From IMG/VR virus record IMGVR_UViG_3300029487_000014: a DNA stretch of 52,634 bases; one strand, 5' to 3'. The position numbers were made by a program, and so were the translations under genes. Below are positions 8,821 through 48,308 of this stretch, one piece after another (position 1 is the stretch's first letter; each line of letters opens with the position of its first letter). The notes under the pieces were generated by a model. It did not search any database, was not told where the DNA came from, and saw nothing but the letters and a program-made list of their open reading frames with translations. Source of the DNA: a virus.

Positions 8821-8849
8821 TATTTCTTTATTTGATATTATAGAATTGT

Positions 8850-8932
8850 GGAATAGGCAGGACTCGAACCTGCATCTTGCTCTCGTTGTTTTTAAGTGGT
8901 ACCACGCTGCTCTTCCATTAAGCTACTATCCC
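8850..8932 (-). tRNA. tRNA-like gene 1 (83 nt): canonical acceptor, D and T arms but no canonical anticodon arm
   Basis: RNA sense: GGGATAG TA GCTTAATGGAAGAGC A [34 nt] GCAGGTTCGAGTCCTGC CTATTCC. No 5-bp/7-nt/5-bp arm exists anywhere in the central 34 nt; every window was checked by hand. Confidence 0.6.
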
Positions 8933-8938
8933 AATAGG

Positions 8939-9021
8939 AGTATAGGCGGGACTCGAACCCACGTTTACTTGGTTTCCACAGACGGTTTCCGAAGTAAGTT
9001 TTACCATTAAACTACTATACT
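8939..9021 (-). tRNA. tRNA-like gene 2 (83 nt): canonical acceptor, D and T arms; the central stem TACTT/AAGTA closes a 21-nt loop that holds a GGAAACC direct repeat
   Basis: RNA sense: AGTATAG TA GTTTAATGGTAAAAC T TACTT CGGAAACCGTCTGTGGAAACC AAGTA AAC GTGGGTTCGAGTCCCGC CTATACT. It lies 6 nt from gene 1. Confidence 0.6.
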
Positions 9022-9040: not shown

Positions 9041-9601
9041 TTACATCATATCGTCATCCTGAACAGCATTATCTCCACCGAAATCTTCTTCAGCGGTTGA
9101 GCCACCAGCCAACATCTCTCCATCTTCGAGCTTCTGGAGATTGTTCAATCCAGCAGCGATACCTTTGGATGAAACATTGAAAGCATAGAAGTTGATTGAA
9201 GCGCGACCATAACAGCCAGAATAGAACTCGTCTCTACTCATGATTGGATTAAGTGAGCGGTCCACAATGCTCGGCTGACGCATCGAGTTTGCATTGATGA
9301 AATAGTGGTCCTCAAATACTGGGTCATCCGGACGTTCTTCATCGCCATCGCGTAGAGGCAATTTGAGGTTTGCTGGGATACGGCCATTCTTATCTGCGAG
9401 TTTTGCCTTACCTGCTTCCTTTGCAGCTTCTATGGCTTTCTTGATTTTGTCAATAGTAGCCGTATCGCTCTTAGGAATAAGAACGCAGATATTATACTTA
9501 GGAGTATCGCCCTCATTCATAGCTGTGGGCTCGAACACGTTTACATAGCAAAATCTTACTTTGCCAGTTACAACCTTGGTTGAATTTACTTGATTACTCA
9601 T
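9041..9601 (-). CDS. Phage ssDNA-binding protein (DUF2815 family)
   Basis: VTGKVRFCYVNVFEP...KYNICVLIPKSD plus an acidic C-terminal tail (DFGGDNAVQDDDMM). Sits in the usual position next to the DUF2800 gene. Confidence 0.75.
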   Translation of the reverse strand: MSNQVNSTKVVTGKVRFCYVNVFEPTAMNEGDTPKYNICVLIPKSDTATIDKIKKAIEAAKEAGKAKLADKNGRIPANLKLPLRDGDEERPDDPVFEDHYFINANSMRQPSIVDRSLNPIMSRDEFYSGCYGRASINFYAFNVSSKGIAAGLNNLQKLEDGEMLAGGSTAEEDFGGDNAVQDDDMM

Positions 9602-36928: not shown

Positions 36929-39652
36929 CTAGTTTCTCAATAATATTTTCTTCCTTCCAGCTTTTCTACTATGCATTTCTACTACTCCAGTTAATGCATC
37001 TGGTGCATCATCATGAGCAGCCCTTCGCTTATTATCTTTACGATAAGTTGTAATAGCATTATAGAATTCACGCCATTTTTTATCCCAATTTTCTGGAAAC
37101 GCTACATCTGAGTTAACAAGAGCTGAATTTGAAAAAATACGAGCAGCTTTATTTTTTGTCTGCGTAAAAGTATTTATGGCTGTTTTGAAATTATGCAAAG
37201 TAGCTCTTGTAATGCGCTTTACATTTCTAGCAAACTGCCTACCACCATTATTGGACTCTATCAGACATTCTGTTATACTATTTTCTGTGAGCATTTTAGC
37301 CAACATTACTTCAGTTTTTTCCATGGGCAGTTGTGTATATAGCACATCAATTACATATAGCATTTCTGGAGTATTTATAAAGCAAATTGCACATAAATAA
37401 TCAGAGCCAGTATCAGCTGTATCAACGTAACACCATCTTTGATTAGCTTTAGAGCCTGATGGCAATTCTATATTTTGATATGTTCTAAACTCGTGATACA
37501 TAAGGCCCTCAGTAGGAATTGGATTTTGCATATACTGCGTCTCAAATACTACCGGGTTAATCTCTCGTAGTTTATATAGCTCCTCAAGATTGTGCTTCAT
37601 TGGCCAAAGAGCATATTCTTCTCCTGTCTCAGGGTCTGTTTGTATAACTGGAAGTGATAAAACAGTCCATGTATCTGGCTCTATTTCTTGTAAATAACCA
37701 CAGAGGTCATGCTCGTGTAATCTTTGCATTATAATAATGATAGGTGTCCTGCGCGAGTTAACACGATTACGTATTGTATTTTCGAAACGCTGATTTATGC
37801 GCTCTCGTATAAGGTCGGATGCTGCATCGTCGGCTTTCAGAGGGTCATCAATCATAATTGCGCCTTGAAATATATTAGTTTTAGCATCTATCATTTTAAG
37901 CATTTCATTTGTATGGTCATCAAATACAAATATATCATTGCCTCCATCCATTTTATCTATTTCTTCATCTACTGCTCCAGCACCAAAGCCTGTAACCTGA
38001 CCTTGTGTTGACACTGCATAGAGTTCTCCGCCTGCTTTAGTTTTCCATCTCTTAGCTGACCCTTTCTCAGATGCAAGAGCTGAATTAGGAAAGAGCGTTT
38101 TATATAATTCTTCGCTCATTATATTACGCACAGTATCTGAATTATCATTTACAAGTATATCTGAATAAGATAGATGCAGAAATCTGCATCGCGGGTTTAA
38201 GGCGAAGCACCATGATATAAACGACTTAATAACTAATTCTGTATTGTGCGATACGAGCCCATTGGCTATAAAATTTTTATCGCCAGATACTTCAATATGA
38301 ACTAATTCATGCTTTCCTACTTCTTCTATACTAACAATTTCATCAGGATAGAAATCTTCAGCCCAATATCTCGTAAGGTTATCAGGAAAAATTTCCACTA
38401 ATTCTCTAAATGTATCTTCTGACATATTCCTATTTGGCCCAACTGATTTATACCCTAAATCAAAGTGTATCATTTTGTAAAGGCCTTCATTCTTTATTAT
38501 AGAATACGGGTATGTGCATGTACGTTCTATTTTAGAAGGCTGTAAAATGTATTCTTTTGCTTTATCTGCTTTTCCATAAAAATTCAAATGTGGATATAAT
38601 TTTTGAGAATATCTTCTTGATATTGCAACATTCCATATACCAGCTTTTTCATTTTCATAAAATCCTAAAGTTGATGGAATTTTCATAGTAGATAACAGAT
38701 ATTGAATATCCTCAGCAAGTCCTTTGTTTGCTAGGCCTATAGACAACTGACCATTCTTTTTTATAGTACCATCTGTTGCTATCATCATTCCTAAAAACAC
38801 ATATTTTTGTCGCATAGAAGTACTAAATATTCCTAATGGGATTCTTTTAGTATAAGAGCTATTTCCAACTAATTTATGCTTTATTAAAATGTTATTTATT
38901 ACGCCATTAGTTCCGCCTAATATGGTATATTGACAATCTGCGGTACAAGAATAATGTTTGGCCTCACCTCCGAGTTCATTAACAGCCTTTATAACAGCAT
39001 TTACCGCTAATTTATCTATGTTAGTAAATCCTAATTTACCAGATTTTGTACAACATCCGTCAAACAGCATCATTGATATTAGTATAATCTCCGCGTCTGA
39101 TAATGTTTCGACGCCGTCTAACTCTTTTTTTAATGCAAATATCCTATCTCCAATTTTAAGCCTATTAGATTTTACATACCCGAACGGTGTTCTCCAAGGA
39201 TGGTCAATACTGCATACAACTGACCGACCTGACCTCATAGTAATTTCATAGCAGTCTTTATATGCCGGCTCAGTAGCAATAACACTATTAACAACCGCTC
39301 TACCATCTTTGAATGATAGCACTTTATCTCCTGGCAGTATATCAGCTATTTTTTTTCGCTCACCTGTAGCAAGCGTAATAAGGGTATCTTTACTAACGCA
39401 TTTCCCGTATCTGGGAGCTATATTAATAATAAGACGTGTAATTTTACCATCCACGACATCTTGCAAGGCTTCAAATATCTTTTTGTGGTGCTTGGCAACG
39501 ATAAATGAGCGCTTATATTGAGCCTTAAACATTAGTTTAGTATACTTTTCAAATGACGTAAGAGCTTCAAGACGTAACATTTCTACAGGATTTACGGCTC
39601 CGGGCTTTGTTGCATCTAATGCTATTTCTTGCATTTCTTTAAGTGACTTCAT
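36929..39652 (-). CDS. terL: Terminase large subunit interrupted by an intein
   Basis: Extein motifs: the Walker A APRYGK|T is split by the intein, Walker B is IMIDDPLK, and the nuclease motifs are CYVDTADTGSDY, ESNNGG and AAHDDAPDAL. Confidence 0.9.
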   Translation of the reverse strand: MKSLKEMQEIALDATKPGAVNPVEMLRLEALTSFEKYTKLMFKAQYKRSFIVAKHHKKIFEALQDVVDGKITRLIINIAPRYGKCVSKDTLITLATGERKKIADILPGDKVLSFKDGRAVVNSVIATEPAYKDCYEITMRSGRSVVCSIDHPWRTPFGYVKSNRLKIGDRIFALKKELDGVETLSDAEIILISMMLFDGCCTKSGKLGFTNIDKLAVNAVIKAVNELGGEAKHYSCTADCQYTILGGTNGVINNILIKHKLVGNSSYTKRIPLGIFSTSMRQKYVFLGMMIATDGTIKKNGQLSIGLANKGLAEDIQYLLSTMKIPSTLGFYENEKAGIWNVAISRRYSQKLYPHLNFYGKADKAKEYILQPSKIERTCTYPYSIIKNEGLYKMIHFDLGYKSVGPNRNMSEDTFRELVEIFPDNLTRYWAEDFYPDEIVSIEEVGKHELVHIEVSGDKNFIANGLVSHNTELVIKSFISWCFALNPRCRFLHLSYSDILVNDNSDTVRNIMSEELYKTLFPNSALASEKGSAKRWKTKAGGELYAVSTQGQVTGFGAGAVDEEIDKMDGGNDIFVFDDHTNEMLKMIDAKTNIFQGAIMIDDPLKADDAASDLIRERINQRFENTIRNRVNSRRTPIIIIMQRLHEHDLCGYLQEIEPDTWTVLSLPVIQTDPETGEEYALWPMKHNLEELYKLREINPVVFETQYMQNPIPTEGLMYHEFRTYQNIELPSGSKANQRWCYVDTADTGSDYLCAICFINTPEMLYVIDVLYTQLPMEKTEVMLAKMLTENSITECLIESNNGGRQFARNVKRITRATLHNFKTAINTFTQTKNKAARIFSNSALVNSDVAFPENWDKKWREFYNAITTYRKDNKRRAAHDDAPDALTGVVEMHSRKAGRKKILLRN
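38243..39400 (-). mobile_element. Intein (386 aa) with a LAGLIDADG homing-endonuclease domain, inserted in the TerL P-loop
   Basis: It starts at Cys85 (GK/CVSKDTLITL) and ends in VSHN/T. Block B is SIDH. The LAGLIDADG motifs are ILISMMLFDGCC and FLGMMIATDGTI. The TGC codon is at 39398-39400 and the AAT (Asn) codon at 38243-38245. Confidence 0.9.
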
Positions 39653-40468: not shown

Positions 40469-41077
40469 TTATTTTCTATATGTATCTAAAGGATTTACAT
40501 AACACCATTCAAATCCATAGGCAGTATGCAATGAGCCTCTGCAACAAGCTGTGATATTGCTTGGTTTTCCACCAATTGCTTCTGCAGCTTCTTTTGCAGA
40601 ATTAAACATTGTTGATTTTCCTGTTTTTCTATCTATGCGATATACTGGTTTGCATAGGCTAAAAGAATGCATATCTGGATTTGCTATTAACAATTCTTCT
40701 ATTACTTTTTTCTCTTCTTGGCTCTTAGCACATGAAAGATTTATTTGATTATAGCCATAGGGTATAAATGCTTTATTGGCTGTTATTGTTTTATACTTTA
40801 GTGAGAAAAGTCGTTTTAAATTAAATATATTACTATCTATTAATCCAACTGTTATATATTTACTTTCTCTTATAGCTTGGCTTATTGAGCTATTGCCTGT
40901 TGGCGAATAGTCATCAAAAGCGTTAAGTATAAAAGATGTTACTGCACTTATGACTGTCCTGTTAAGAACGTGTCCTACATATAGCCTGTTATCTTTTTCG
41001 AATTCAATCGTAAATATTGCGTATTTGGCATTTACGTTGTCAGGCATATCCACCTTATAGTTATTTATCAGTACCAT
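40469..41077 (-). CDS. Free-standing GIY-YIG-like homing endonuclease with a C-terminal NUMOD/IENR-like DNA-binding module
   Basis: KYAIFTIEFEKDNRLYVGH is GIY-x9-YIG-like. The C-terminus reads VYRIDRKTGKSTMFNSAKEAAEAIGGKPSNITACCRGSLHTAYGFEWCY. Confidence 0.6.
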   Translation of the reverse strand: MVLINNYKVDMPDNVNAKYAIFTIEFEKDNRLYVGHVLNRTVISAVTSFILNAFDDYSPTGNSSISQAIRESKYITVGLIDSNIFNLKRLFSLKYKTITANKAFIPYGYNQINLSCAKSQEEKKVIEELLIANPDMHSFSLCKPVYRIDRKTGKSTMFNSAKEAAEAIGGKPSNITACCRGSLHTAYGFEWCYVNPLDTYRK

Positions 41078-41098: not shown

Positions 41099-41140
41099 CA
41101 AATATACTAATTACTTTGCAAAGTAAAAAATATATCTAAA
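41099..41140 (-). promoter_or_regulatory. Promoter of the leftward late/packaging series (-7 box TATATTTG at 41099-41106)
   Basis: The minus-sense sequence reads TAATTAGTATATTTGCAAAAAC, about 20 nt upstream of the ATG at 41077. Confidence 0.6.
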
Positions 41141-41216
41141 ATAAAAAATTTACTATTTTCATGCAAAAATTTCTGCATAAATAAATAAAACTTTTTCTTG
41201 TTTCTTTTATAGACTG

Positions 41217-41417
41217 TTGATTTTCAATTATATAAGTTACTACGGAAACAAAGAAATTGCGAGAATTTTTTTCTTCTATATACCCTTTTTTTAAAAAAGC
41301 CTATCTATATTAATATATACTAGCTAATATAAATAACAATTCTATATTTTTATTTTGTGCTCCATATAAATTTCTTTGTTTATCTTGTTTATTTATATCT
41401 AATTCATTGAAAATCAA
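41217..41417. repeat. Nested inverted repeats: outer TTGATTTTCAAT / ATTGAAAATCAA (41217-41228 / 41406-41417) and inner AAACAAAGAAAT / ATTTCTTTGTTT (41246-41257 / 41370-41381)
   Basis: Read directly. The geometry and sequence blocks are homologous to the 12079-12223 locus. Confidence 0.8.
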
Positions 41418-41611
41418 TCACTTATCGAGAAACAATCTGTTGTTTATATTGTTTATATTGTTTATACTGCGAGAATGTCATTTTGCCAATTCCCTATTAA
41501 GTCTAAGGGTCTAAATTGATATTTGCGAGAATATATGTGAGAATGAAAATTTATGAGCCTCTGGGCCTTGTTCATACTTATATTATGATTTGTTAGCCAG
41601 TTTGCGAGAAT
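41259..41611 (+). promoter_or_regulatory. Five same-orientation GAGAAT boxes: GCGAGAAT at 41259, 41469, 41525 and 41604, and GTGAGAAT at 41537
   Basis: Each is preceded by T(T)/K. Contexts: aaattGCGAGAATtttt, atactGCGAGAATgtca, atttGCGAGAATatat, agtttGCGAGAATgatt. Confidence 0.6.
41441..41467. repeat. Three tandem 9-mers: TGTTTATAT TGTTTATAT TGTTTATAC (iteron-like)
   Basis: Read directly. Followed immediately by a GCGAGAAT box. Confidence 0.85.
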
Positions 41612-41755
41612 GATTTGAAGCCAAAAAATTTTTCTGCCTATGGGCATGGCTCTATATACTATATATAAGGGGCACCCAGGCACTGCGGCAGGGGCCTAAT
41701 TTCCACACAGGCAAAATTTTCAAAATATAAAAATTTATTTGGTTAAAAAGCATTA

Positions 41756-41942
41756 AGCCTGACAGCCTAATTCGTTAATTATGGTTTAATTCGTTAAAGT
41801 TCTATAAGGCTATCAGCCTGTTAACGACTCTTAACTAAAATAATTTTCAGGTTCCAAACCATTTACAGGCTCATAGCCTCTCCTCCAACAAGGTTTAACG
41901 AAAATTTAACACTTCCTAACCAAATATATTTTCAGGTTCCAA
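41756..41942. promoter_or_regulatory. Operator-like repeat field: AGGCT-N3-AGCCT palindromes (41807-41819, 41867-41879; related AGCCTGACAGCCT at 41756-41768), TAATTCGTTAA twice (41768-41778, 41788-41798), and ATTTTCAGGTTCCAA twice (41843-41857, 41928-41942)
   Basis: All repeats were read directly in the 1.1-kb divergent intergenic region. Confidence 0.6.
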
Positions 41943-42079
41943 TTATTTTATTAGCTGACAGGTATAAAATTATTATTTTAATTTATTAACGAAACAACCA
42001 GGAAATTTAATACGATTTAACCCGTAAAATTTTTATATGTTATTTATTTTACAGGCAAAAAAATTTCCAAAAAAAATCA

Positions 42080-42125
42080 TGAAAAATTTTTCTGATTCAA
42101 AAATTATTTGTATATTTACATATCG
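42080..42125 (+). promoter_or_regulatory. Rightward promoter P1 (-7 box TATATTTA at 42111-42118; upstream TTTTTCTGATTCAAA block)
   Basis: Near match to TAnnTTTG. It is duplicated as P2, which has the same upstream block. Confidence 0.5.
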
Positions 42126-42199
42126 GAAATAATGAACGAAATAAATCAAAATCTGGAAACAAAAATTAACAGATACAGATTGAAAATTTAACATAAAAA

Positions 42200-42240
42200 G
42201 TTTTTCCGATTCAAATAAAATGAGTATATTTACAATATAA
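42200..42240 (+). promoter_or_regulatory. Rightward promoter P2 (-7 box TATATTTA at 42225-42232; upstream TTTTTCCGATTCAAA block)
   Basis: Paralogue of P1, about 30 nt upstream of the ATG at 42261. Confidence 0.5.
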
Positions 42241-42260
42241 ATAATAAAACAATAAAGAAT

Positions 42261-42434
42261 ATGACACAGTTAGAAAAATTCTTGTTCGAATTATCATTCG
42301 GAGAAATTAAAAAAATTCGTGATTATATGTTAAAAAGGTATCACGTATATTGTGGCTCAATGGAAAAGCTGGCGAGAGAAATAGACGAGAGAATACCGGA
42401 GCCGCTTGAAGAACTGTACGAAGTGCTCGCATAA
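42261..42434 (+). CDS. Hypothetical early protein (57 aa; below the ORF-track cutoff)
   Basis: Manual translation MTQLEKFLFELSFGEIKKIRDYMLKRYHVYCGSMEKLAREIDERIPEPLEELYEVLA. Confidence 0.5.
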   Translation: MTQLEKFLFELSFGEIKKIRDYMLKRYHVYCGSMEKLAREIDERIPEPLEELYEVLA

Positions 42435-42444
42435 CAGGAGAACA

Positions 42445-42499
42445 TCCCGGGCGGGAGAATGGCCGTAATGGCATCAGTGGCTCAACTCCACTGCCGGGA
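42445..42499 (+). promoter_or_regulatory. Structured intergenic element A (base stem TCCCGG/CCGGGA; 3'-adjacent hairpin CAGTGG-CTCAACT-CCACTG)
   Basis: Hand folding. Same architecture as elements B and C. Ends 31 nt before the ATG at 42531. Confidence 0.55.
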
Positions 42500-42530
42500 A
42501 CAAGAGAATTAACAATAAAAATTTACAGCA

Positions 42531-42887
42531 ATGAAAGTAAACAGAAATTACCGTTTCGTATTGACGAACATTCCAAACAGCATGTTGGAAACAGGAGAAG
42601 TAAGAATTGACAACGAGGAAGTAACCGGCGAGAGAATGTTTGCCAGTGAATGCCACTACTATGCCGAAAAAAATATCCTCGAGTGTATCAAGGACGCAGC
42701 AAAACGCGACGACTTGCGCGGCTACTACGAACACACTTACTGTATCTACAAAGAGGACAAACCGAAAAAGGAGACAGTAGAGCGTGAAGAGGACGGCAAG
42801 AAAATTACCGAGACAAGAGAAATACCTGGCAAGGCAATGCTGGTTGAGGTAATTACAGTAGACGAGAACGGCATAAACATTCGCTAA
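42531..42887 (+). CDS. Hypothetical early protein
   Basis: 118-aa ORF preceded by the conserved leader AAAAATTTACAGCA. Confidence 0.65.
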   Translation: MKVNRNYRFVLTNIPNSMLETGEVRIDNEEVTGERMFASECHYYAEKNILECIKDAAKRDDLRGYYEHTYCIYKEDKPKKETVEREEDGKKITETREIPGKAMLVEVITVDENGINIR

Positions 42888-42904
42888 ACGAATGGCCGTT
42901 CGCC

Positions 42905-42943
42905 CCCGGGTTGGACGTACAGGAGTTCGACTCTCCTGCCGGG
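42905..42943 (+). promoter_or_regulatory. Structured intergenic element B (base stem CCCGG/CCGGG; T-arm-like hairpin CAGGAG-TTCGACT-CTCCTG)
   Basis: Hand folding. The 7-nt loop TTCGACT matches the tRNA T-loop pattern. Ends 28 nt before the ATG at 42972. Confidence 0.6.
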
Positions 42944-42971
42944 CACTATAACAAATCTAAAAATTACAGTT

Positions 42972-43346
42972 ATGACAAAGAACTATTACAGGAGTGAGTA
43001 CTCTGACAAACAGTGGAAAGCCTTAATCGACAAGGCCACGGAACTGGGTTGCCAGATAACTTATAGCAAGTACGGCAACATAGTAACAATCGACAGCACA
43101 GACCGGAAGAGCTTAATAATAGCTCAAACCGGGAGAGGCGGACAGGACAGAGTCGTATTGGCCGAGAGAATACACGGCGTGATACAGGAGAGCACAGACC
43201 TCAGAACGTGGAAAGTGCAGCCCAAGAGATACCGCAAAGGCTATTGTCCGACTATTTGCAAGAGTCAGAAGTCGGCTGAGCATGAACAGGAGCGTCTCGA
43301 GAGAATGACAGGTTTTGAGTGGACAATAACAGTAATACCAGAATAA
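42972..43346 (+). CDS. Hypothetical early protein
   Basis: 124-aa ORF preceded by the leader CTAAAAATTACAGTT. Confidence 0.65.
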   Translation: MTKNYYRSEYSDKQWKALIDKATELGCQITYSKYGNIVTIDSTDRKSLIIAQTGRGGQDRVVLAERIHGVIQESTDLRTWKVQPKRYRKGYCPTICKSQKSAEHEQERLERMTGFEWTITVIPE

Positions 43347-43347
43347 T

Positions 43348-43578
43348 ATGAAGAAGACAGTTTATTTGTACGTTGAAAGAGACGACAGCGAATACGACTA
43401 TAAAGCCGGATTTGCAAGCTACACTGAGGCAAATGACTATCGGCAAGAACGCCAACGCGGTTGGATGGGTCACTGTGACTATGTGTATCTTTGGACCGGC
43501 TCCGAGAGAATTAACCTCACAAGAATGCCGAAAGACGAGAGAAACAAATTGCTGAAACAGTTTAATATACCGGAATAA
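43348..43578 (+). CDS. Hypothetical early protein
   Basis: 76-aa ORF, 1 nt after the previous stop. Confidence 0.6.
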   Translation: MKKTVYLYVERDDSEYDYKAGFASYTEANDYRQERQRGWMGHCDYVYLWTGSERINLTRMPKDERNKLLKQFNIPE

Positions 43579-43579
43579 T

Positions 43580-43786
43580 ATGAGCAGCAAGAGAACTTAT
43601 ATCGCTACATTCTGGCGTAGCAATCCGCAATTGAAGAATGGCGGTTACTTCACTACAAAGGAATTTCAATCTGTGTCGCTCCAAGGAGCAACAAAACAGG
43701 CTGAGAGATATGCAGCTAGTAATATGTATGGAGGCATGGCAGTAAAAAGTGTTGAACTAAAACAAGAGAACAGCAATGGAAAATAA
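43580..43786 (+). CDS. Hypothetical early protein
   Basis: 68-aa ORF, 1 nt after the previous stop. Confidence 0.6.
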   Translation: MSSKRTYIATFWRSNPQLKNGGYFTTKEFQSVSLQGATKQAERYAASNMYGGMAVKSVELKQENSNGK

Positions 43787-43883
43787 CAAATCGCAGTTCA
43801 AGAGAACAGGAGTTTTGCACAACGGAGCCGAGTGCATTGAGATACAAATTGATGAATATGCAGCAAGAATGAACGTAAAATAA
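43776..43883 (+). CDS. Possible 35-aa protein
   Basis: Manual translation MENNKSQFKRTGVLHNGAECIEIQIDEYAARMNVK. Its start overlaps the previous gene's stop. Confidence 0.35.
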   Translation: MENNKSQFKRTGVLHNGAECIEIQIDEYAARMNVK

Positions 43884-43899
43884 CCAACATTATTTAACG

Positions 43900-43955
43900 A
43901 AAAAAGTTCTTAAAGCAGTAACCAGATTAAAATAAAAGTAGTATATTTGCATATA
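43900..43955 (+). promoter_or_regulatory. Rightward promoter P3 (TATATTTG at 43942-43949; conserved upstream block AAAAAAGTTCTTAAAGCAG at 43900-43918)
   Basis: Exact TAnnTTTG match. The whole module is duplicated as P4. Confidence 0.65.
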
Positions 43956-44002
43956 CTTAAAAAGATATGGCGATAGCCAAAACAACTAAAATTTACAGCA
44001 AT

Positions 44003-44194
44003 ATGGAAACAACAGTTTTTTATGTAGCAGTTGCCTATAACGGCGGTATTTTCAATCCCACAGTTGTGGAGAAGTTTGATAACAAAACAGATGCAGACAG
44101 CTATGCGGCCCTTATGTGTCGCTCAAAGCAACGCCGGTACATTGTACTCGAGCAAGTAACAGAATGGGACGGCACTCCTCAAGAGAATGCATGA
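44003..44194 (+). CDS. Hypothetical early protein (start placed at METTVFYV)
   Basis: The conserved leader CTAAAATTTACAGCAAT abuts the ATG at 44003. The upstream ATG at 43967 would translate through that leader. Confidence 0.6.
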   Translation: METTVFYVAVAYNGGIFNPTVVEKFDNKTDADSYAALMCRSKQRRYIVLEQVTEWDGTPQENA

Positions 44195-44199
44195 CCTTA

Positions 44200-44274
44200 G
44201 CCGCTGCGGAGAGAAACGATATTCGTGGAACAGTATCAAGCGAAGCGGATTTTAGGAGCGACACCTACAGCGGC
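44200..44274 (+). promoter_or_regulatory. Structured intergenic element C (base stem GCCGCTG/CAGCGGC; 3'-adjacent hairpin TAGG-AGCGACA-CCTA)
   Basis: Hand folding. Same layout as A and B. A second hairpin (TTGCT..CGCAA..TTGCG..AGCAA) follows at 44289-44316. Confidence 0.5.
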
Positions 44275-44337
44275 ACTAAGTTTAACCCTTGCTTTCGCAA
44301 TATTGTTGCGGAGCAACTAATAAAAATTTACAGTAAT

Positions 44338-44502
44338 ATGGTAACAATGAAATTTTCAGCAACCAAGTCAGAAACATTGTTTTTGACACCGACAATTGCA
44401 GTTGAACAAGACAACTCAGAAACAGCAATCCGATTTGCTCTTTGGCACGGCGTGTTCAGTGTAGAGGTAAGTAAGAGCTACAAAACCGTAAAAGCTAAAT
44501 AA
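44338..44502 (+). CDS. Hypothetical early protein (54 aa; start at MVTMKF)
   Basis: The leader TAAAAATTTACAGTAAT abuts the ATG at 44338. The longer track ORF from 44116 reads through element C. Confidence 0.55.
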   Translation: MVTMKFSATKSETLFLTPTIAVEQDNSETAIRFALWHGVFSVEVSKSYKTVKAK

Positions 44503-44503
44503 C

Positions 44504-44770
44504 ATGGCAAGAAATGAAATGTTTGTAACGGTTTATAGGCTTGAAGTTGAAGCCACTCGAGAGAATTTGGACAGTATGGAGAACTTTATAAAAGCTATTT
44601 CGGATAACGCTATCGTGTCCAACGATGAGGGCCATGTAGCTATCATAGTAGTGTCTTCGGATGCCTTAGGGACAACGAAATTGGCTAATATGGCACTCAA
44701 ATTCTTTGGCAAGGAGGGATATAATATAAGTACTCTCGGACTCTTAGGGCCGTTTAAGAAACTCAATTGA
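44504..44770 (+). CDS. Hypothetical early protein
   Basis: 88-aa ORF, 1 nt after the previous stop. Confidence 0.6.
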   Translation: MARNEMFVTVYRLEVEATRENLDSMENFIKAISDNAIVSNDEGHVAIIVVSSDALGTTKLANMALKFFGKEGYNISTLGLLGPFKKLN

Positions 44771-44792
44771 TATTTTTTAACATAAAACTTGG

Positions 44793-44848
44793 AAAAAAGT
44801 TCCCAAAGCAGCTCAATAATTCAAAAAAACATAGTATATTTGCAATAT
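44793..44848 (+). promoter_or_regulatory. Rightward promoter P4 (TATATTTG at 44835-44842; upstream block AAAAAAGTTCCCAAAGCAG at 44793-44811)
   Basis: Paralogue of P3. Confidence 0.65.
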
Positions 44849-44896
44849 CAAAATTAAACAATAACATTTTAATAACAATTCAAAATTTACAGCATT

Positions 44897-46024
44897 ATGG
44901 CAACAAAGAAATTTTTGCAGATGACAACGAAGAAGCTGAACGCTCTTTTGGCAACAGCAAGTGACGAAGACAAAAAGGCTATCGAGGCCGTACTCGCAGC
45001 TCGTGAACAGGCTCAGGCCCCCGCTGCTCCTGCAGCTCCTGAGGCAACCGCAGAAGAGACTCCTGCAAGTGAAGAAGAAACTCAGCTCAGCCCTGAGGAA
45101 GAAGCAGCTATTAAGGCAGCTGAAGAGAATGGCGGGCTCAACCCGCTTTACAATGGCAGCAAGGCAACTCAGGAGAAAAAGCCAAAGATGACCGACGAGG
45201 AGCGTCACGCATTGGCCGAAGAGCTGAAGAAGAACGTTAACCACCGTTGTCAGGCAGTTCCTTTCAACACTGCAGAATGGGTTGACGGCTATATCGCCGG
45301 AGTGATTGAAGAGAAGCGCAGCAATAAGGTGCTCTATGCAATCAAGACAGACGACGGACGCCGCATCGTTAAGGTACACGACAGCAATCTTGTTCGCATT
45401 CTGGATGAAGTCGTTGAGCCGGAGAAGAAAGCCCGCGCTCGCAAAGCAAAAGACCCGGCAGACAAAGTTGAATGGACACCGGAAGCAATTGCCGAAGAGG
45501 TTAACGAAGTTATCGGCAACGTGGGCAAAACGGTAGAATTTGAGAAATACCGCACTACAGACGAAAACGGCGAAGAGCACATTGAAATGGTAGTTGGCCG
45601 TATTGTGGCAATCGTGCCTGACAAACGAGCTCAGCGTTTGCTCTACCGCATTTCAGTTCCGGCTCCTATCGAAGGCAATCCGCTTGCAACGAAGACTATG
45701 CACAAGGTTGTAAAAGCCGAGGGCATTAAGATTACCGAAGAGTTCGATGAAGAAGGTGCACAGCTCAATGCCAAGTATCTTGAACGCCGTGAGGCAGCAG
45801 CAACCCGTACTCCACTTACTCCTCAGGACCGCGTAATTCGCTGCGAGGAGAATGTGAAGAAGGCGGAGGAGAAGCTGCAGAAAGCTCAGGAAGAGCTGGA
45901 AGCTAAAAAGAAGCAGCTTGAGGATGCAAAGAAGGAGCTGGATGAATATCTTGCCGGTCAGGTAAATGGAGAAACTGCCGAAGCTCCTGCTGAAACTACA
46001 GCCGAAGAGGAGTCACTTGCATAA
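44897..46024 (+). CDS. Hypothetical acidic protein with a PAAP linker, two repeated small domains and a C-terminal coiled coil
   Basis: 375 aa. It has its own promoter (P4), the conserved leader and tandem terminators. GC content looks higher than in the neighbouring genes. Confidence 0.8.
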   Translation: MATKKFLQMTTKKLNALLATASDEDKKAIEAVLAAREQAQAPAAPAAPEATAEETPASEEETQLSPEEEAAIKAAEENGGLNPLYNGSKATQEKKPKMTDEERHALAEELKKNVNHRCQAVPFNTAEWVDGYIAGVIEEKRSNKVLYAIKTDDGRRIVKVHDSNLVRILDEVVEPEKKARARKAKDPADKVEWTPEAIAEEVNEVIGNVGKTVEFEKYRTTDENGEEHIEMVVGRIVAIVPDKRAQRLLYRISVPAPIEGNPLATKTMHKVVKAEGIKITEEFDEEGAQLNAKYLERREAAATRTPLTPQDRVIRCEENVKKAEEKLQKAQEELEAKKKQLEDAKKELDEYLAGQVNGETAEAPAETTAEEESLA

Positions 46025-46053
46025 CACAGCCGCCTGACACCGTTTCTCCCATG

Positions 46054-46105
46054 GAGTCGCCTCTTTCGAGGCGGCTCTTTTTTGCTGCATATCTAAGTAT
46101 GCAGC
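46054..46105 (+). terminator. Tandem terminators: GAGTCGCCTC-TTTC-GAGGCGGCTC plus TTTTTT (46054-46083), then the GCTGCATA-TCTAAG-TATGCAGC hairpin (46084-46105)
   Basis: Hand folding. The first hairpin is followed by a T-run. Confidence 0.8.
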
Positions 46106-46169
46106 TATTTTTGTATTATTGTGATTTATGTTAAAATATGTAAACTCATAGAAACATGCTTCTTTCGCG

Positions 46170-46394
46170 TTCTAGGACACTTTTAGGCTTTGGGTGTACT
46201 ATAATATGGGTCAACTCAATTCGACGCAATAGAGGTCAAAAGAAGTGTATCTATCAATGTATTTTTATAAAGTCTATAATATGAATTGAGGTATGGACTT
46301 TCCTGAGCTTTAAGCCACTAAGCAGTTATATAAATAGCTGTTAAATTTATGGCTAAAAAGTTGACTCATTTTCGTGCATTCTAGGACACTTTTA
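46170..46394 (+). repeat. Direct repeat TTCTAGGACACTTTTA (46170-46185 and 46379-46394) with partly conserved upstream flanks (ACTCAT...TTTCG)
   Basis: Read directly in the 0.5-kb non-coding gap. Confidence 0.8.
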
Positions 46395-46619
46395 TTTGAG
46401 AATAATAGTAAACTAAATCTATAAAAAGAAATGAAGAGAGAATGAACGAGAATAATGAAATTTCATATATTTTCGAGGCGTTTAGAGCTCTATATTTTTA
46501 TATTAAAGCTGCAATAAACCAGTGAAAAATTTTTATGTTAAAGTCTGTAAAACAGTGATTTATATCAAGATTATTTTGTACTTTAACTTATAAAAGAATA
46601 AAAGTGAAACTGTTAAAAA

Positions 46620-46841
46620 ATGTTACACACTAGAACACATAAAAGCCGCATAGTCATTATGATTAAACAGCTTATGCCTGAGAGTACAAGCTGTGTAGCT
46701 CGTGTGCACAGTGGACTATGCAGCAATTGTCCACATTGGACCCTGAGTGTGGTACAGAAGTTAACAGAGGAAATGGCCGAGAGAATATCTGCCGCGATTG
46801 GACAGGAGAATATCACAAGGCCCCAACGAGAGAAATGTTGA
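46620..46841 (+). CDS. Hypothetical protein with a CxxxxxxxxCxxC motif (alternative start at 46659)
   Basis: 73-aa ORF containing STSCVARVHSGLCSNCPHW. Confidence 0.5.
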   Translation: MLHTRTHKSRIVIMIKQLMPESTSCVARVHSGLCSNCPHWTLSVVQKLTEEMAERISAAIGQENITRPQREKC

Positions 46842-46862
46842 ACAAAAATAAATAATTGCGAT

Positions 46863-47060
46863 ATGGAAATAAATGAACAAGAGAATACCCAAGAGGTACA
46901 GCAAGAAAATTTGCTTGATGGCTCTCAGTCAATTCAGGCAATGCAAGAAGGAAATGAACTGCCAGTAGCTGTTCAATTAGTTCAGCCTCAAGCTGCTTTA
47001 GATGAAATAGCAGAGCTTGAGAAGAAATATTGTGAAACTATAGAACGGGAGAATAAATGA
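46863..47060 (+). CDS. Hypothetical acidic protein
   Basis: 65-aa ORF, rich in Q and E. Confidence 0.55.
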   Translation: MEINEQENTQEVQQENLLDGSQSIQAMQEGNELPVAVQLVQPQAALDEIAELEKKYCETIERENK

Positions 47061-47533
47061 GCAATTTTGTTTTAGATTACAGCAAAAAGCAGACTTTGCA
47101 AATATCAAATGATGCTTTTTGCTTTTTGTATTATGGCGAAGAGCCATTAGATGAAGACAATTTGGAAGAAGCTAATGAGGTATCTGAAATGTTTTCCAAT
47201 AATTTTTATATAGAAGATAATTGGAAAGCAGTTGATGACTCAGACCTTATAGAATGTACTTTTGTTCCGTATGTTGAAGACCAAGCTGATTATGATGAAT
47301 ATGAGGACCTTACTAAATATATTCAGCAGCAAATAAAATGGCTTGATGCAAATCATATTAGAGTATGGTGGTTTAATAACCAAACTGGGACGAGAGAATT
47401 ACGTGGTGATTTTAAGGTTTATACCAATAAATATGGCCTTAAGTGTTTTCATACAGGCAATCAAGATGAGGATTTTGTAACAGGAAAAATGAGCCTGTAT
47501 TTTTTGAAGAATTTCAAGAAGCGCATAGCTTAA
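47057..47533 (+). CDS. Hypothetical protein with a strongly acidic N-terminal half
   Basis: 158 aa. Residues 1-87 hold about 27 Asp/Glu and about 4 Lys/Arg. ATGA overlap with the previous gene. Confidence 0.65.
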   Translation: MSNFVLDYSKKQTLQISNDAFCFLYYGEEPLDEDNLEEANEVSEMFSNNFYIEDNWKAVDDSDLIECTFVPYVEDQADYDEYEDLTKYIQQQIKWLDANHIRVWWFNNQTGTRELRGDFKVYTNKYGLKCFHTGNQDEDFVTGKMSLYFLKNFKKRIA

Positions 47534-47553: not shown

Positions 47554-47587
47554 AAGGCAGACTACAGAAAAGTAGTCTGCCTTTTTT
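47554..47587. terminator. Bidirectional terminator between the convergent gene blocks
   Basis: AAGGCAGACTAC-AGAAAA-GTAGTCTGCCTT followed by a T-run. 12-bp perfect stem. Confidence 0.85.
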
Positions 47588-48308
47588 ACATTAAGCTTTC
47601 ATCTTCTTCTATAACAAGAGAATAACCAACTCCTCGTATAGTTTCTATAGCTACTCGGTTATCCATTTTAAGCATATTTCGCAGCATACATATATGAACA
47701 TCTAAGCTACGTTTATTAAAGTAGTTATCATCAGTCCATACTTGTTGCATAAGTATTTTCTTGGGTAATGTTTCGTTTTTATAGGCACATAATAAAGCAA
47801 GAACTTGGCTTTGTTTATTATTAAGCTGTGTTTTTACATTGCCTATAGTAAGAATTTTATCTACTGTATTAAACAGGTAATTGCCTATCTCATAAGATGG
47901 CTCTATACTTCTTACTCGCACACCACATCTTTTTAGAACGGCTTTTATTCTTCTTATAAGCTCCTCAATGTTATATGGTCTTATAACATAATCATCCGCA
48001 CCTTCATCAAATGCTTCAATTACATACTCATATCGGACCTTATCTGATACCATTATTACAGGTATTTTATCATCTGATTTGCGCAAAAATTTTAATGGCT
48101 TTAGCCTCATAGAGGCATCTGTTGTTTTATAATGACTTAATATGCATAAGTCATAATTCTTTTCTCTGATTTTGATTAGTATATCATCCTCAGTTGAGGT
48201 TATTACTTGAAAGCCATTATACACCAAATAATCTACCAGGATTTTACAGTCTTCATCTTGATAGATTAAAATTCTTGGCAATGCTAATTTAGTGTTATTA
48301 CTTTTCAT
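47586..48308 (-). CDS. OmpR/PhoB-family response-regulator-like protein lacking the phospho-acceptor Asp
   Basis: The receiver fold has ILIYQDED, then DLCILS (Ser58 where Asp is expected), VIMVS, and DDYVIRPY (Arg110 where Lys is expected). The winged-helix domain reads LDVHICMLRNMLK...IETIRGVGYSL. Confidence 0.8.
   Translation of the reverse strand: MKSNNTKLALPRILIYQDEDCKILVDYLVYNGFQVITSTEDDILIKIREKNYDLCILSHYKTTDASMRLKPLKFLRKSDDKIPVIMVSDKVRYEYVIEAFDEGADDYVIRPYNIEELIRRIKAVLKRCGVRVRSIEPSYEIGNYLFNTVDKILTIGNVKTQLNNKQSQVLALLCAYKNETLPKKILMQQVWTDDNYFNKRSLDVHICMLRNMLKMDNRVAIETIRGVGYSLVIEEDESLM

What the first reader, a model, noticed from the sequence alone, without database searches (positions are those of the whole stretch)
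42445..44316. Three intergenic RNA structures share a tRNA-minihelix-like architecture and punctuate the rightward polycistron
Elements A (42445-42499), B (42905-42943) and C (44200-44274) each begin within 20 nt of a stop codon and share one layout.

A GC-rich base stem closes the element: TCCCGG/CCGGGA in A, CCCGG/CCGGG in B, GCCGCTG/CAGCGGC in C. Its 3' strand is directly stacked on a hairpin with a 7-nt loop:
- A: CAGTGG-CTCAACT-CCACTG
- B: CAGGAG-TTCGACT-CTCCTG
- C: TAGG-AGCGACA-CCTA

All the unpaired sequence sits on the 5' side, and each element is followed by AC.

The upper stems differ by compensatory changes, which argues for selection on structure. In B the arm AGGAG-TTCGACT-CTCCT followed by GCCGGGC-A closely mimics a tRNA T-arm plus 3' acceptor strand. 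A and B also share the 10-mer GAATGGCCGT.

None of the elements has a U-tract. Each is followed 28-63 nt later by the conserved AAAATTTACAG leader of the next gene.

An acceptor/T-arm coaxial stack is the minimal substrate of RNase P and RNase Z. These elements could therefore be processing 'punctuation' marks that split the polycistronic early RNA, as tRNAs do in mitochondrial transcripts. They could also be stabilisers or attenuators, or cassette boundaries like the promoter-early stem-loops of T4-type phages.
Basis: partly seen in the sequence, partly recalled or inferred. Interest (0 to 1): 0.75.

Follow-up and report, generated by a model that had tools for sequence, protein, structure and literature searches.

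The report
tRNA-like minihelices between phage genes
Small RNA folds that copy the top half of a tRNA sit between genes of this gut Bacteroides-type phage and of many unrelated phages; they probably tell host tRNA-processing enzymes where to cut the long messenger RNA, and no RNA database lists them.

Summary
Elements A (42445-42500), B (42904-42945) and C (44200-44275) lie on the sense strand, 5-17 nt after a stop codon. Each is a closing stem stacked on a hairpin with a 7-nt loop.

A and B belong to one family. In 81 related phage loci a covariance model finds 94 copies, all on the gene strand, with 98% of cells paired and 9 of 12 pairs showing compensatory changes.

B also belongs to a much wider 41-nt motif: N6-GAUGGUCGCA-N6-UUCGACU-N6'-N6'. 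I found it in unrelated phage contigs and metagenomes (37-72% GC), often several times per locus between small co-oriented genes. Its stems differ completely but stay complementary (11 of 12 pairs covary).

C is a separate, clade-restricted class with weaker tRNA likeness.

None is a tRNA, a tmRNA, a canonical terminator or an att fragment, and Rfam has no matching family.

The best reading, which is inferred and not shown, is that these are "t-element"-like signals for RNase P and/or RNase Z that split polycistronic phage mRNA. This is a new variant of a known kind and worth experimental follow-up.

The parts
42445..42500 (+). Element A. Closing stem TCCCGG/CCGGGA. 24-nt connector GCGGGAGAAUGGCCGUAAUGGCAU, with a possible GCC/GGC hairpin. 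T-arm-like hairpin CAGUGG-CUCAACU-CCACUG. Discriminator-like A.
   Evidence: sequence. (model R1, 76.6 bits, E 2e-18). (covariation in homologues); the tRNA-like fold is -20.5 to -22.1 kcal/mol against a rival minimum-energy fold of -24.7.
42904..42945 (+). Element B, a minimal 'top-half tRNA' minihelix. Closing stem (C)CCCGG/CCGGG(C). Connector GUUGGACGUA. Hairpin CAGGAG-UUCGACU-CUCCUG. Then A.
   Evidence: R1, 23.8 bits. (R2, 60.7 bits, E 8e-17); the same architecture occurs in unrelated phages, with 11 of 12 pairs covarying; a weak match to the tRNA-like domain of tmRNA only.
44200..44275 (+). Element C. 7-bp closing stem GCCGCUG/CAGCGGC. 46-nt connector starting CGGAGAGAAACG. 4-bp hairpin UAGG-AGCGACA-CCUA. 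Then A.
   Evidence: 19 distinct homologues, short and long forms; inner stem UA/GC at one pair and AU/GC/CG/UA at the next. Not detected by R1 or R2.
42889..42902 (+). Small hairpin CGAAU-GGCC-GUUCG between the stop codon and B. It contains the GAATGGCCGT 10-mer. In relatives this site holds 0 to 3 or more copies of a 31-nt hairpin repeat.
   Evidence: minimum-energy fold. (variable modules in relatives). Its function was not tested.
42518..42528 (+). Leader AAAATTTACAG, 2 nt before the ATG at 42531. It lies 18 nt after A.
   Evidence: 4 exact copies against 0.15 expected.
42959..42969 (+). Leader variant AAAAATTACAG before the ATG at 42972. It lies 13 nt after B.
44323..44333 (+). Leader AAAATTTACAG before the ATG at 44338. 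It lies 47 nt after C.
42111..42232 (+). Two promoter-like repeats (GTATATTTACA; Bacteroides-type -7 box TAnnTTTR) upstream of the first gene of the operon that holds A and B.
   Evidence: Pattern match only; not evidence of activity.
43942..43949 (+). Promoter-like -7 box TATATTTG with a conserved upstream box AAAAGTTCYYAAAGCAG. It heads the unit that holds C. A twin lies at 44835-44842.
46053..46088 (+). Canonical intrinsic terminator (11-bp GC-rich hairpin plus TTTTTT) ending the second or third unit. Another lies at 47554-47591. These show what terminators look like in this module.
8849..9021 (-). Two tandem 84-nt cloverleaf mimics. They have canonical acceptor, D and T arms but non-canonical 'anticodon' regions. 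They lie in the gap between the SSB gene (9041-9601) and the family A DNA polymerase gene (6844-8820), on the sense strand.
   Evidence: Rfam tRNA, 47.7 and 44 bits, with 25-30 nt inserted in place of the anticodon arm. (ARAGORN finds none). (hypervariable middle region in 80 relatives).

Best explanation
A, B and C are structured parts of the early polycistronic mRNA. Each imitates the acceptor-stem/T-arm 'top half' of a tRNA.

**Anatomy.**
- In A and B the 6+6 bp coaxial stack has the same length as the 7+5 bp stack of a tRNA.
- The loop is a T-loop.
- The 5' connector keeps a GG (AAUGG / GWUGGWCG) placed to make the D-loop/T-loop elbow.

**Proposed mechanism (inferred).** This is the part of a tRNA that RNase P, RNase Z and the CCA-adding enzyme recognise.
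1. Host RNase P cuts at the 5' edge of the closing stem, a few nucleotides after the upstream stop codon.
2. Host RNase Z cuts after the unpaired nucleotide that follows the 3' strand.
3. The operon RNA is thereby split at gene junctions that are not translationally coupled.
4. The downstream gene receives a free 5' leader of 26-62 nt. That is similar in length to the leaders of the promoter-proximal genes, which I estimate at about 45 nt.
5. A 41-76 nt tRNA-like RNA is released or left as a 3' cap.

**Shown versus inferred.** Shown: the structure, its conservation, its strand, its position and its spread. Inferred: cleavage by RNase P/Z and its effect on expression.
For: **Structure.**
- R1 alignment: 98.1% of cells paired, 9 of 12 pairs with double changes, 0 of 500 shuffles as good, slid controls 25-54% paired.
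- Ungapped alignment of 24 B-type sequences, 14 of them from unrelated contigs: 95.8% paired, 11 of 12 pairs covary, 34 extra pair types, covariation score 0.93 against 0.22.
- RNAalifold gives the same fold.
- The stems were not part of the search pattern that found the unrelated copies.

**RNA level and sense strand.**
- 94 of 94 hits are on the gene strand in 460 kb searched on both strands.
- All copies within each unrelated locus share one strand with the flanking small ORFs.
- G.U cells outnumber C.A/A.C cells 12 to 4.
- Loops and connector are conserved while stems vary, which is the RNA signature.

**Punctuation pattern.**
- Median 12.5 nt after a stop codon and 41 nt before the next ATG.
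- Unrelated phages carry 2-6 copies per 6-12 kb, spaced roughly 120-1900 nt apart, typically 400-650 nt. Each is 6-8 nt after a stop codon and 14-36 nt before a start codon.
- Tandem arrays occur in L230 and L219.

**Not terminators.** Real hairpin-plus-U-tract terminators lie at 46053 and 47554.

**The anticodon half is dispensable.** The cloverleaf mimics in the SSB-polymerase gap keep acceptor, D and T arms while the middle is hypervariable.

**Precedent.** Plant-mitochondrial and haloarchaeal t-elements are tRNA-like structures within transcripts that are cut by RNase P and RNase Z (PMC1920247; PMC6546412).
Against: - No RNA ends, cleavage assays or expression data were available.
- The nucleotide before the closing stem is A, C or G rather than the U that I recall bacterial RNase P preferring. 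No CCA follows the element.
- In this window B's closing stem has only 5 clean pairs.
- A's single-sequence minimum-energy fold (-24.7 kcal/mol) lacks the T hairpin. The tRNA-like fold is -20.5 to -22.1 kcal/mol.
- Folding z-scores are weak.
- The connector is conserved in sequence: GAUGGUCGCA across phyla and GGGAGAAUGG in A-type. In this clade it overlaps a module-wide motif, GAGAGAA. That may point to a sequence-specific partner other than RNase P/Z.
- C's loop AGCGAYA does not fit the T-loop consensus.
- Cutting would leave flanking mRNAs with unprotected ends, so a benefit is assumed, not shown.
Confidence: 0.5

Rival explanations
1. The elements are genes for small stable tRNA-top-half RNAs, and excision from the mRNA is only their biogenesis. 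Once released, and possibly CCA-tailed, they act in trans. They could be decoys or sponges for host factors that recognise the tRNA elbow or acceptor end, such as tRNA-targeting immune nucleases, the CCA-adding enzyme or toxins.
For: - The connector and loop sequences are conserved across unrelated phages far beyond what a processing site should need.
- Copy number per genome is high, and tandem arrays exist.
- The elements sit among small early-type ORFs of unknown function, where anti-defence genes usually lie.
- tRNA-tail-cleaving immunity exists (PMC12851939, listed; title and abstract only).
Against: - Closing-stem sequences are free to vary, so there is no identity set for a specific enzyme.
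- There is no evidence that the RNAs accumulate.
- This reading still requires RNase P/Z-type excision, so it extends the main explanation rather than replacing it.
Confidence: 0.15
2. The elements act in cis without being cut. They would be stable folds that insulate neighbouring cistrons. They could block 3'-exonucleases, block Rho loading, or uncouple or re-couple translation at the stop codon.
For: - The fixed position 5-12 nt after the stop codon puts the fold roughly where I would expect the mRNA entrance of a terminating ribosome to lie; that geometry is from memory.
- The folds are GC-rich, stacked helices.
- They occur only at junctions with a gap, not at overlapping TAATATG junctions.
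Against: - A plain hairpin would do this job. It would not explain the conserved T-loop, the GG connector and the tRNA-like 12-bp geometry.
- In relatives, variable extra hairpin modules are inserted between the stop codon and the element, so the spacing is not strict.
Confidence: 0.15
3. The elements are DNA-level cassette boundaries. They would be folded or repeated sites that promote recombination and shuffling of small early genes, like T4 promoter-early stem-loops or integron attC sites.
For: - The genes that follow the 118-aa gene differ between close relatives, and breakpoints lie at or near the elements.
- L023 shows a deletion through the 9-nt microhomology ACAGGAGTT inside B.
- Copy number of modules and elements varies.
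Against: - Stems vary while loop and connector are conserved, the opposite of what protein-bound DNA arms would show.
- Orientation is strictly on the sense strand, and G.U pairs are tolerated.
- No integrase or recombinase lies nearby in the window or in the unrelated loci examined.
- Homologous recombination at any conserved intergenic sequence would give the same mosaicism as a by-product.
Confidence: 0.07
4. The elements are decayed tRNA genes or att-type tRNA fragments with no present function.
For: - They resemble tRNA 3' halves (T arm plus acceptor 3' strand).
- Phages do carry tRNA fragments as attP next to integrases (PMC8707807).
Against: - A tRNA 3' fragment has no complementary 5' strand placed 10 nt before the T arm.
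- Compensatory changes in both stems show purifying selection on pairing.
- No integrase was found.
- The same 41-nt design recurs in unrelated phages.
Confidence: 0.03
5. The elements are transcription attenuators or non-canonical terminators.
For: GC-rich hairpins lie directly after genes.
Against: - They have no U-tract.
- The same module ends its units with canonical hairpin-plus-U-tract terminators.
- Downstream genes have no promoter-like box of their own after A and B.
Confidence: 0.05

Closest known systems
t-elements of plant mitochondria and haloarchaea (tRNA-like processing signals inside transcripts)
   Same: - tRNA-like folds with a conserved T arm embedded in mRNA or precursor transcripts next to coding regions.
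- The anticodon part is non-canonical or missing.
- Their ends coincide with RNA termini made by RNase P and RNase Z, and CCA-type tails are added (PMC1920247; PMC6546412).
   Different: - The elements here are in DNA phages of bacteria.
- They are much smaller (41-56 nt, no D or anticodon arm).
- They form sequence families with a conserved connector (GAUGGUCGCA / GGGAGAAUGG).
- They recur regularly between small genes.
- Cleavage has not been shown.
Mitochondrial tRNA punctuation, and tRNA genes embedded in phage or bacterial operons (for example the T4 and T5 tRNA regions)
   Same: tRNA-shaped units between cistrons serve as cleavage marks for RNase P/Z in a polycistronic RNA (established knowledge, recalled).
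   Different: Those are real decoding tRNAs. A, B and C have no anticodon arm and are not called as tRNAs by ARAGORN or Rfam.
MALAT1 mascRNA / MEN-beta tRNA-like ends, and the tRNA-like units of murine gammaherpesvirus 68 (TMERs)
   Same: A tRNA mimic within a longer transcript recruits RNase P and/or RNase Z to create RNA ends and a small tRNA-like RNA (recalled knowledge).
   Different: - Those are eukaryotic, full cloverleaf-like and present in single copy.
- There is no sequence relation: no Rfam hit to any family at E up to 10, apart from the weak tmRNA match.
tRNA-like domain of tmRNA (Rfam RF00023)
   Same: An acceptor stem plus T arm joined by a stemless D-loop analogue. It is the only Rfam model that touches B (12.9 bits, E 0.02).
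   Different: - The score is far below the gathering score of 47.
- There is no mRNA-like part and no pseudoknots, and the two halves are contiguous.
- There is no G3.U70 (a tmRNA feature as I recall it) and no encoded CCA.
T4 promoter-early stem-loops and integron attC sites (cassette boundaries)
   Same: Repeated structured sequences between small, shuffled early genes. Mosaic breakpoints lie nearby.
   Different: Those act at the DNA level or in promoter context. Here the conservation pattern, the strand bias and the tRNA geometry point to RNA.

Membership tests
tRNA (Rfam RF00005) | Cloverleaf with D arm and a 5-bp anticodon stem carrying a 7-nt anticodon loop | tested here: not met
   ARAGORN finds no tRNA in the window. 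Rfam gives no tRNA hit at A, B or C even at E up to 10. The connector is only 10-46 nt and has no anticodon arm.
tRNA (Rfam RF00005) | T arm with loop consensus UUCRANY, stacked on the acceptor stem to give a helix of about 12 bp | tested here: met
   B has UUCGACU. A has CUCAACU, with UUCAACU or UUCGACU in relatives. The stack is 6+6 bp. C has AGCGACA with a 7+4 bp stack, so C does not meet it.
tmRNA (Rfam RF00023) | tRNA-like domain plus an internal tag reading frame and pseudoknots, scoring at or above the gathering score (47 bits) | tested here: not met
   B scores 12.9 bits, with 326 model positions skipped. ARAGORN finds no tmRNA.
t-element (tRNA-like processing signal) | tRNA-like fold with a conserved T arm inside a transcript, adjacent to coding regions | tested here: met
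t-element (tRNA-like processing signal) | RNA 5'/3' termini coincide with the element borders, and RNase P/RNase Z cleave it | not testable with these tools
   No transcript-end data or enzyme assays were available. The definition is taken from PMC1920247.
Intrinsic (Rho-independent) terminator | GC-rich hairpin immediately followed by a U-tract | tested here: not met
   The terminator scan lists sites at 46053 and 47554 but none at A, B or C. AC plus mixed sequence follows each element.
attP-type tRNA gene fragment | 3' part of a host tRNA gene next to an integrase gene, with no own 5' complementary strand | tested here: not met
   Each element has its own covarying 5' strand. No integrase was found among 30 ORFs scanned against Pfam, 10 of them also against PHROGs.
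Integron attC / recombination cassette site | An associated site-specific (IntI-type) recombinase and imperfect inverted repeats with conserved R/L boxes | tested here: not met
   No recombinase was found in the window or in the neighbours examined. Conservation lies in the loop and connector, not in the arms.

The most novel reading that the evidence does not exclude
The minihelices are more than cut marks. They would be a widespread class of phage-made 'top-half tRNA' RNAs, released in many copies from early transcripts. They would act as decoys or sponges for host factors that read the tRNA elbow and acceptor end, such as tRNA-cleaving immune nucleases, the CCA-adding enzyme or toxins. That would make them an RNA-based anti-defence or host-takeover device. 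The clade-specific GAGAGAA tags in the same transcripts would belong to the same RNA-level control system.
Probability: 0.12. Interest if true: 0.9.

Novelty: new variant of a known kind. Interest (0 to 1): 0.78.

Why it matters
- **A general operon device in phages.** If RNase P/Z cut here, phages of very different lineages share a compact, portable way to break operon RNA into separate messages using enzymes every host has. So far this is documented mainly for organelles, archaeal constructs and a few eukaryotic transcripts.
- **Relevance to Bacteroidota.** As I recall, translation initiation in this phylum does not rely on Shine-Dalgarno pairing, so free, unstructured 5' leaders may matter. 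The elements could therefore shape phage gene expression in the human gut.
- **Annotation.** The motif is small, strongly supported by covariation and absent from Rfam. Adding it would improve the annotation of phage 'dark' intergenic regions and of mis-called pseudo-tRNAs.
- **Tool potential.** The 41-nt unit is a ready-made candidate part for multiplexed RNA processing in bacteria. t-elements and tRNAs are already used this way (PMC6546412).

Tried and rejected
- **Single-sequence folding.** z-scores are weak (-0.6 to -2.0) and A's minimum-energy fold is a rival structure. I did not use this as support.
- **MAFFT on all variants together.** It misaligned the 5' strand of short forms. I solved this with a subset seed plus a covariance-model alignment and with an ungapped alignment for B-type.
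- **Rfam, at gathering threshold and at permissive E-values.** No family matched A, B or C.
- **Bacterial/archaeal genome scan with a connector-plus-T-arm pattern.** The hits examined were true tRNAs or coding look-alikes, plus one haloarchaeal minihelix (L103).
- **Isolated relative Bacteroides phage BF486P2.** It has the same genome layout but no elements and no tRNAs.
- **Cultured relatives of the unrelated minihelix-bearing contigs.** None was found by DNA search, and only distant protein hits appeared. No phage with published transcriptomics could be linked.
- **Literature searches.** I searched for phage tRNA-like intercistronic elements and for the connector sequence. Nothing specific turned up.
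- **PHROGs and Pfam on the flanking small proteins.** All are of unknown function.
- **The shared 10-mer GAATGGCCGT as a functional box.** It is not conserved at B in relatives.
Full report
**Setting**

The window looks like a complete phage genome of about 52.6 kb from the human gut.
- Its only DNA relatives among deposited phages are an unannotated faecal scaffold (92% identity) and, very distantly, Bacteroides fragilis phages of the same size and layout.
- Almost all genes run leftward. They include an SNF2 helicase, a VapE-type primase-helicase, a family A DNA polymerase, an Enc34-type SSB, a DUF2800 nuclease, an intein-containing large terminase and tail genes.
- The only rightward block is 42261-47533. 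It holds about 14 small genes with no recognisable family.
- This block carries four promoter-like repeats with a Bacteroides-type -7 box, at 42111, 42225, 43942 and 44835.
- It also carries two canonical hairpin-plus-U-tract terminators, at 46053 and 47554.
- A and B therefore lie inside the first multigene unit, after its first and second genes. C lies after the first gene of the second unit.

The sequences, stems, 7-nt loops, trailing AC, lack of U-tracts and closeness to stop codons (10, 16-17 and 5 nt) are all as described.
- A blind structural scan of both strands finds the layout only at A, at B and at one tRNA-like gene.
- ARAGORN calls no tRNA anywhere in the window.
- Rfam has no family for A, B or C even at E up to 10. 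The one exception is a 12.9-bit match of B to the tRNA-like domain of tmRNA.
- Single-sequence thermodynamics are weak: z = -2.0, -0.6 and -1.6.
- For A the minimum-energy fold (-24.7 kcal/mol) is a rival to the tRNA-like fold (-20.5 to -22.1 kcal/mol).
- The case therefore rests on comparative evidence.

**A and B are one family in this phage clade**

I used the 118-aa protein that lies between A and B to fetch 80 related loci from IMG/VR, at 64-99% protein identity.
- Downstream of its stop codon nearly all loci carry a B-like element, in several sequence variants. The closing stem is GCCCGG/CCGGGC, GCCCAG/CTGGGC, GCCCTC/GAGGGC or GTCCAG/CTGGAC.
- The inner stem is CAGGAG/CTCCTG, CAGCAG/CTGCTG, CAGTGG/CCACTG or TGGTGG/CCACTA.
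- The loop stays TTCGACT.
- A covariance model (R1) was seeded on 18 variants, with only the two stems annotated. In the window it finds only A (76.6 bits) and B (23.8 bits).
- In the relatives it finds 94 copies, every one on the gene strand.
- On that alignment 98.1% of cells pair and 9 of 12 pairs show changes on both sides. No shuffle out of 500 reaches the observed covariation, and sliding the 3' partner drops pairing to 25-54%.
- G.U cells (12) outnumber C.A/A.C cells (4).
- The copies start a median of 12.5 nt after a stop codon and end a median of 41 nt before the next ATG-initiated ORF.
- One relative carries three to four tandem A-type copies with a 79-nt period.

**B belongs to a much wider motif**

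A hit in an unrelated GC-rich 84-kb contig (L219) showed three tandem minihelices whose connector, GATGGTCGTA, is almost the same as B's GTTGGACGTA. I then scanned IMG/VR with only the connector and the T-loop, using the pattern GWTGGWCGYANNNNNGTTCGACTC. This returned 36 stretches, 15 of them from contigs unrelated to this clade (37-72% GC).

All 15 share one architecture: N5-7, GATGGTCGCA, N6, TTCGACT, N6', N5-7'. The two stems are complementary but entirely different in sequence, and neither the closing stem nor the 3' half of the inner stem was in the pattern. Two examples:
- GCCCGG-GATGGTCGCA-CGAGGG-TTCGACT-CCCTCG-CCGGGC-A
- TACTGG-GATGGTCGCA-AAGAGG-TTCGACT-CCTCTT-CCAGTA-T

Further evidence for the wider motif:
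- An ungapped MAFFT alignment of 24 sequences gives 95.8% pairing, 11 of 12 covarying pairs and 34 additional pair types. The covariation score is 0.93 against 0.22 in shuffles.
- RNAalifold predicts the same structure without guidance.
- The single-sequence minimum-energy fold contains at least 10 of the 12 consensus pairs in 19 of 24 cases.
- A second model (R2) scores window B at 60.7 bits.
- R2 shows that the unrelated phage loci carry several copies each, always on one strand. There are six in 6 kb in L329, four each in L325 and L352, three in L219, and two each in L322 and L338.
- Those copies sit between small co-oriented ORFs. They are typically 6-8 nt after a stop codon and 14-36 nt before the next start codon.
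- The same pattern in JGI metagenomes gave 35 distinct matches. Of these, 25 have a perfect inner stem and 26 have at least 5 of 6 closing pairs. The rest are coding look-alikes.
- These loci contain no tRNA arrays and no integrases. Neighbouring genes include GroEL, helicase and UvsX-like genes.

**What the shape means**

The 6+6 bp stack matches the 7+5 bp acceptor/T-arm helix of tRNA. With a flanking G-C pair, some unrelated copies are exactly 7+5.
- The loop fits the T-loop consensus.
- The connector keeps a GG in the context A/U-U-G-G, as in a D loop, followed by UCG, as in a variable loop.
- This is the arrangement needed to form the tRNA 'elbow' without D or anticodon arms.
- From established knowledge of tRNA enzymology, which was not tested here, the acceptor/T-arm domain with its elbow is the part recognised by RNase P, RNase Z and the CCA-adding enzyme.
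- A is a clade-specific elaboration. Its 24-30 nt connector reads GCGGGAGAAUGG, then a small variable hairpin, then AU.

**C is a different class**

Nineteen distinct homologues, in short (45 nt) and long (76 nt) forms, keep the 7-bp stem GCCGCUG/CAGCGGC and the loop AGCGAYA. The 4-bp inner stem changes between UAGG/CCUA, GUGG/CCAC, GCGG/CCGC and GGG/CCC.
- That is genuine but limited covariation: two pairs, one of them with four pair types.
- My selection pattern fixed most of the closing stem, so that stem could not be assessed.
- The loop does not fit a T-loop, and neither R1 nor R2 detects C.
- C shares the layout and the position, and its connector starts with a purine motif (CGGAGAGAA) as in A-type. 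Its tRNA likeness is weak.

**A second set of tRNA mimics in the same phage**

Rfam's only hits in the window are two tandem 84-nt 'tRNAs' at 8849-9021 on the - strand.
- They have normal acceptor, D and T arms, but 25-30 nt of non-canonical sequence replaces the anticodon arm. ARAGORN rejects them.
- They lie on the sense strand in the gap between the SSB and DNA polymerase genes.
- In 80 relatives that gap always holds one or two such mimics. Their middle part differs radically between lineages, and in some lineages they are reduced to minihelix-like forms.
- ARAGORN calls none in 15 of 20 loci, an undetermined 'ccat' four-base anticodon in three, tRNA-Ile in one, and nothing in the rest.
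- This fits selection on the acceptor/T (and D) half only. It suggests the same device is used in the replication operon.

**Mechanism**

I propose that the elements are t-element-like processing signals.
1. RNase P cuts at the 5' border, just after the upstream stop codon.
2. RNase Z cuts after the unpaired nucleotide at the 3' border.
3. The downstream gene gains a 26-62 nt leader ending in AAAATTTACAG-N2-4-ATG.
4. The same leader is found after the promoter-like sites at 43942 and 44835. A processed message would therefore resemble a primary one.
5. Junctions without elements are overlapping stop/start junctions (TAATATG), which I take to be translationally coupled.

Shown: the RNA structure, its strand, its position, its recurrence and its breadth. 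Inferred: the enzymes, the cuts and the benefit.

Points against:
- There are no end-mapping data.
- The -1 nucleotide is not U, and no CCA follows.
- B's closing stem in this window is imperfect.
- A has a competing fold.
- The connector's sequence conservation hints at an additional or different partner.

**Rival readings**
- A trans-acting small RNA or decoy role is compatible with the data and would extend the processing model.
- A purely cis structural role (insulator or stabiliser) does not explain the tRNA-specific features.
- A DNA-level cassette-boundary role is suggested by the strong mosaicism around the elements and by a microhomology deletion through B in L023. It is contradicted by the conservation pattern, the strand bias and the lack of a recombinase.
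- Decayed tRNA or att fragments and terminators are rejected.

**Comparison with what is known**
- The closest analogues are the t-elements of plant mitochondria and haloarchaea, mitochondrial tRNA punctuation, and mascRNA-type ends.
- Membership in tRNA, tmRNA, terminator or att classes fails on defining features.
- Membership in 't-element' is met for structure and context but is untestable for cleavage.
- I found no description of such elements in phages in the searchable literature and no Rfam family.
- I therefore rate this as a new variant of a known kind: a compact, sequence-defined, widespread phage version of tRNA-like punctuation.

Noticed in passing
window 8849-8932(-) and 8938-9021(-): Two tandem 84-nt cloverleaf mimics lie between the SSB and DNA polymerase genes. 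Their acceptor, D and T arms are canonical, but the anticodon arm is replaced by 25-30 nt of odd sequence. In 80 relatives this gap always holds 1-2 such mimics with a hypervariable middle. ARAGORN mostly rejects them and gives a 'ccat' four-base anticodon call in three loci.
   Followed up: partly
window 42261-47533 (+), e.g. 42387, 42630, 43164, 43299, 43504, 44559, 46779, 47392: The motif (C)GAGAGAA(T) is strongly strand-specific. It occurs 13 times on the + strand of the module and 0 times on its - strand, with only 4 more copies in the other 47 kb. In L002-L081 the count is 364 against 3. It occurs in all three reading frames and also forms the single-stranded connector of A-type and C-type elements. 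It is a nucleotide-level signal of unknown meaning.
   Followed up: partly
window 36932-39652(-): The large terminase gene is interrupted by an intein with a LAGLIDADG homing-endonuclease domain (Pfam Intein_splicing, LAGLIDADG_3, Terminase_6C).
   Followed up: no
window 47589-48308(-): The phage encodes an OmpR-type two-component response regulator (receiver domain plus Trans_reg_C winged helix). It lies directly after the bidirectional terminator that closes the rightward module.
   Followed up: no
window 40472-41077(-): An ORF with an I-HmuI-like NUMOD domain (homing-endonuclease type) lies next to the packaging genes and borders the 1.2-kb non-coding region 41100-42260.
   Followed up: no
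window 43905-43960 and 44798-44853 (+); also 42070-42125 and 42185-42240: There are two pairs of promoter-like repeats with conserved upstream boxes. One pair reads AAAAGTTCYYAAAGCAG ... GTAGTATATTTGCA. The other reads AAAARTTTTTCYGATTCAAA ... GTATATTTACA.
   Followed up: partly
L017, L027, L029, L032, L033, L037 (downstream of the 118-aa gene): A 31-nt hairpin unit, GCCGGTTGTTCCACGACAGTGGGACGCCGGA, is present in 1 to 3 or more tandem copies between the stop codon and the B-type element. The window has none. This is a copy-number-variable structured spacer.
   Followed up: no
L035, L050-L066 and others, directly 3' of the B-type element: A conserved palindromic hairpin, TTGGCAATATTGCCGA followed by GAGAGAATTA, lies after the element in many relatives. 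L081 has a compensatory variant, TTGACAATAGTGTCAA. It could be a 5'-end hairpin of the downstream message.
   Followed up: no
L023 about 820-900, compared with window 42921-42929 and 43812-43820: One relative lacks about 0.9 kb between element B and the small ORF 43776-43883. The junction falls in the shared 9-mer ACAGGAGTT, so this is a deletion by microhomology inside the T-stem.
   Followed up: partly
L230 13777-13996(-) and 14548-14596(-): A relative carries three tandem identical A-type elements (79-nt period) plus a fourth copy one gene upstream, and a C-type element between two other genes.
   Followed up: partly
L325, L329, L352 (unrelated contigs): The minihelices there share conserved flanks. 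Upstream is stop codon-TCCCCCG, then the stem AACTGC...GCAGTT. Downstream is C-CTCATCAAAAC or CTAAATTTTT, about 15-20 nt before the ATG. Counting the flanking G and C gives an exact 7+5 bp tRNA geometry.
   Followed up: partly
L103 3213-3256(+) (Halobacteriota MAG contig): A 44-nt minihelix, GCCCAC-GCGGGTGCAACG-CAGCGG-TTCGACT-CCGCTG-GTGGGT, lies about 25 nt upstream of a gene with a twin-arginine signal peptide. It may be a haloarchaeal t-element in a 5' leader. Rfam finds nothing in the locus.
   Followed up: partly
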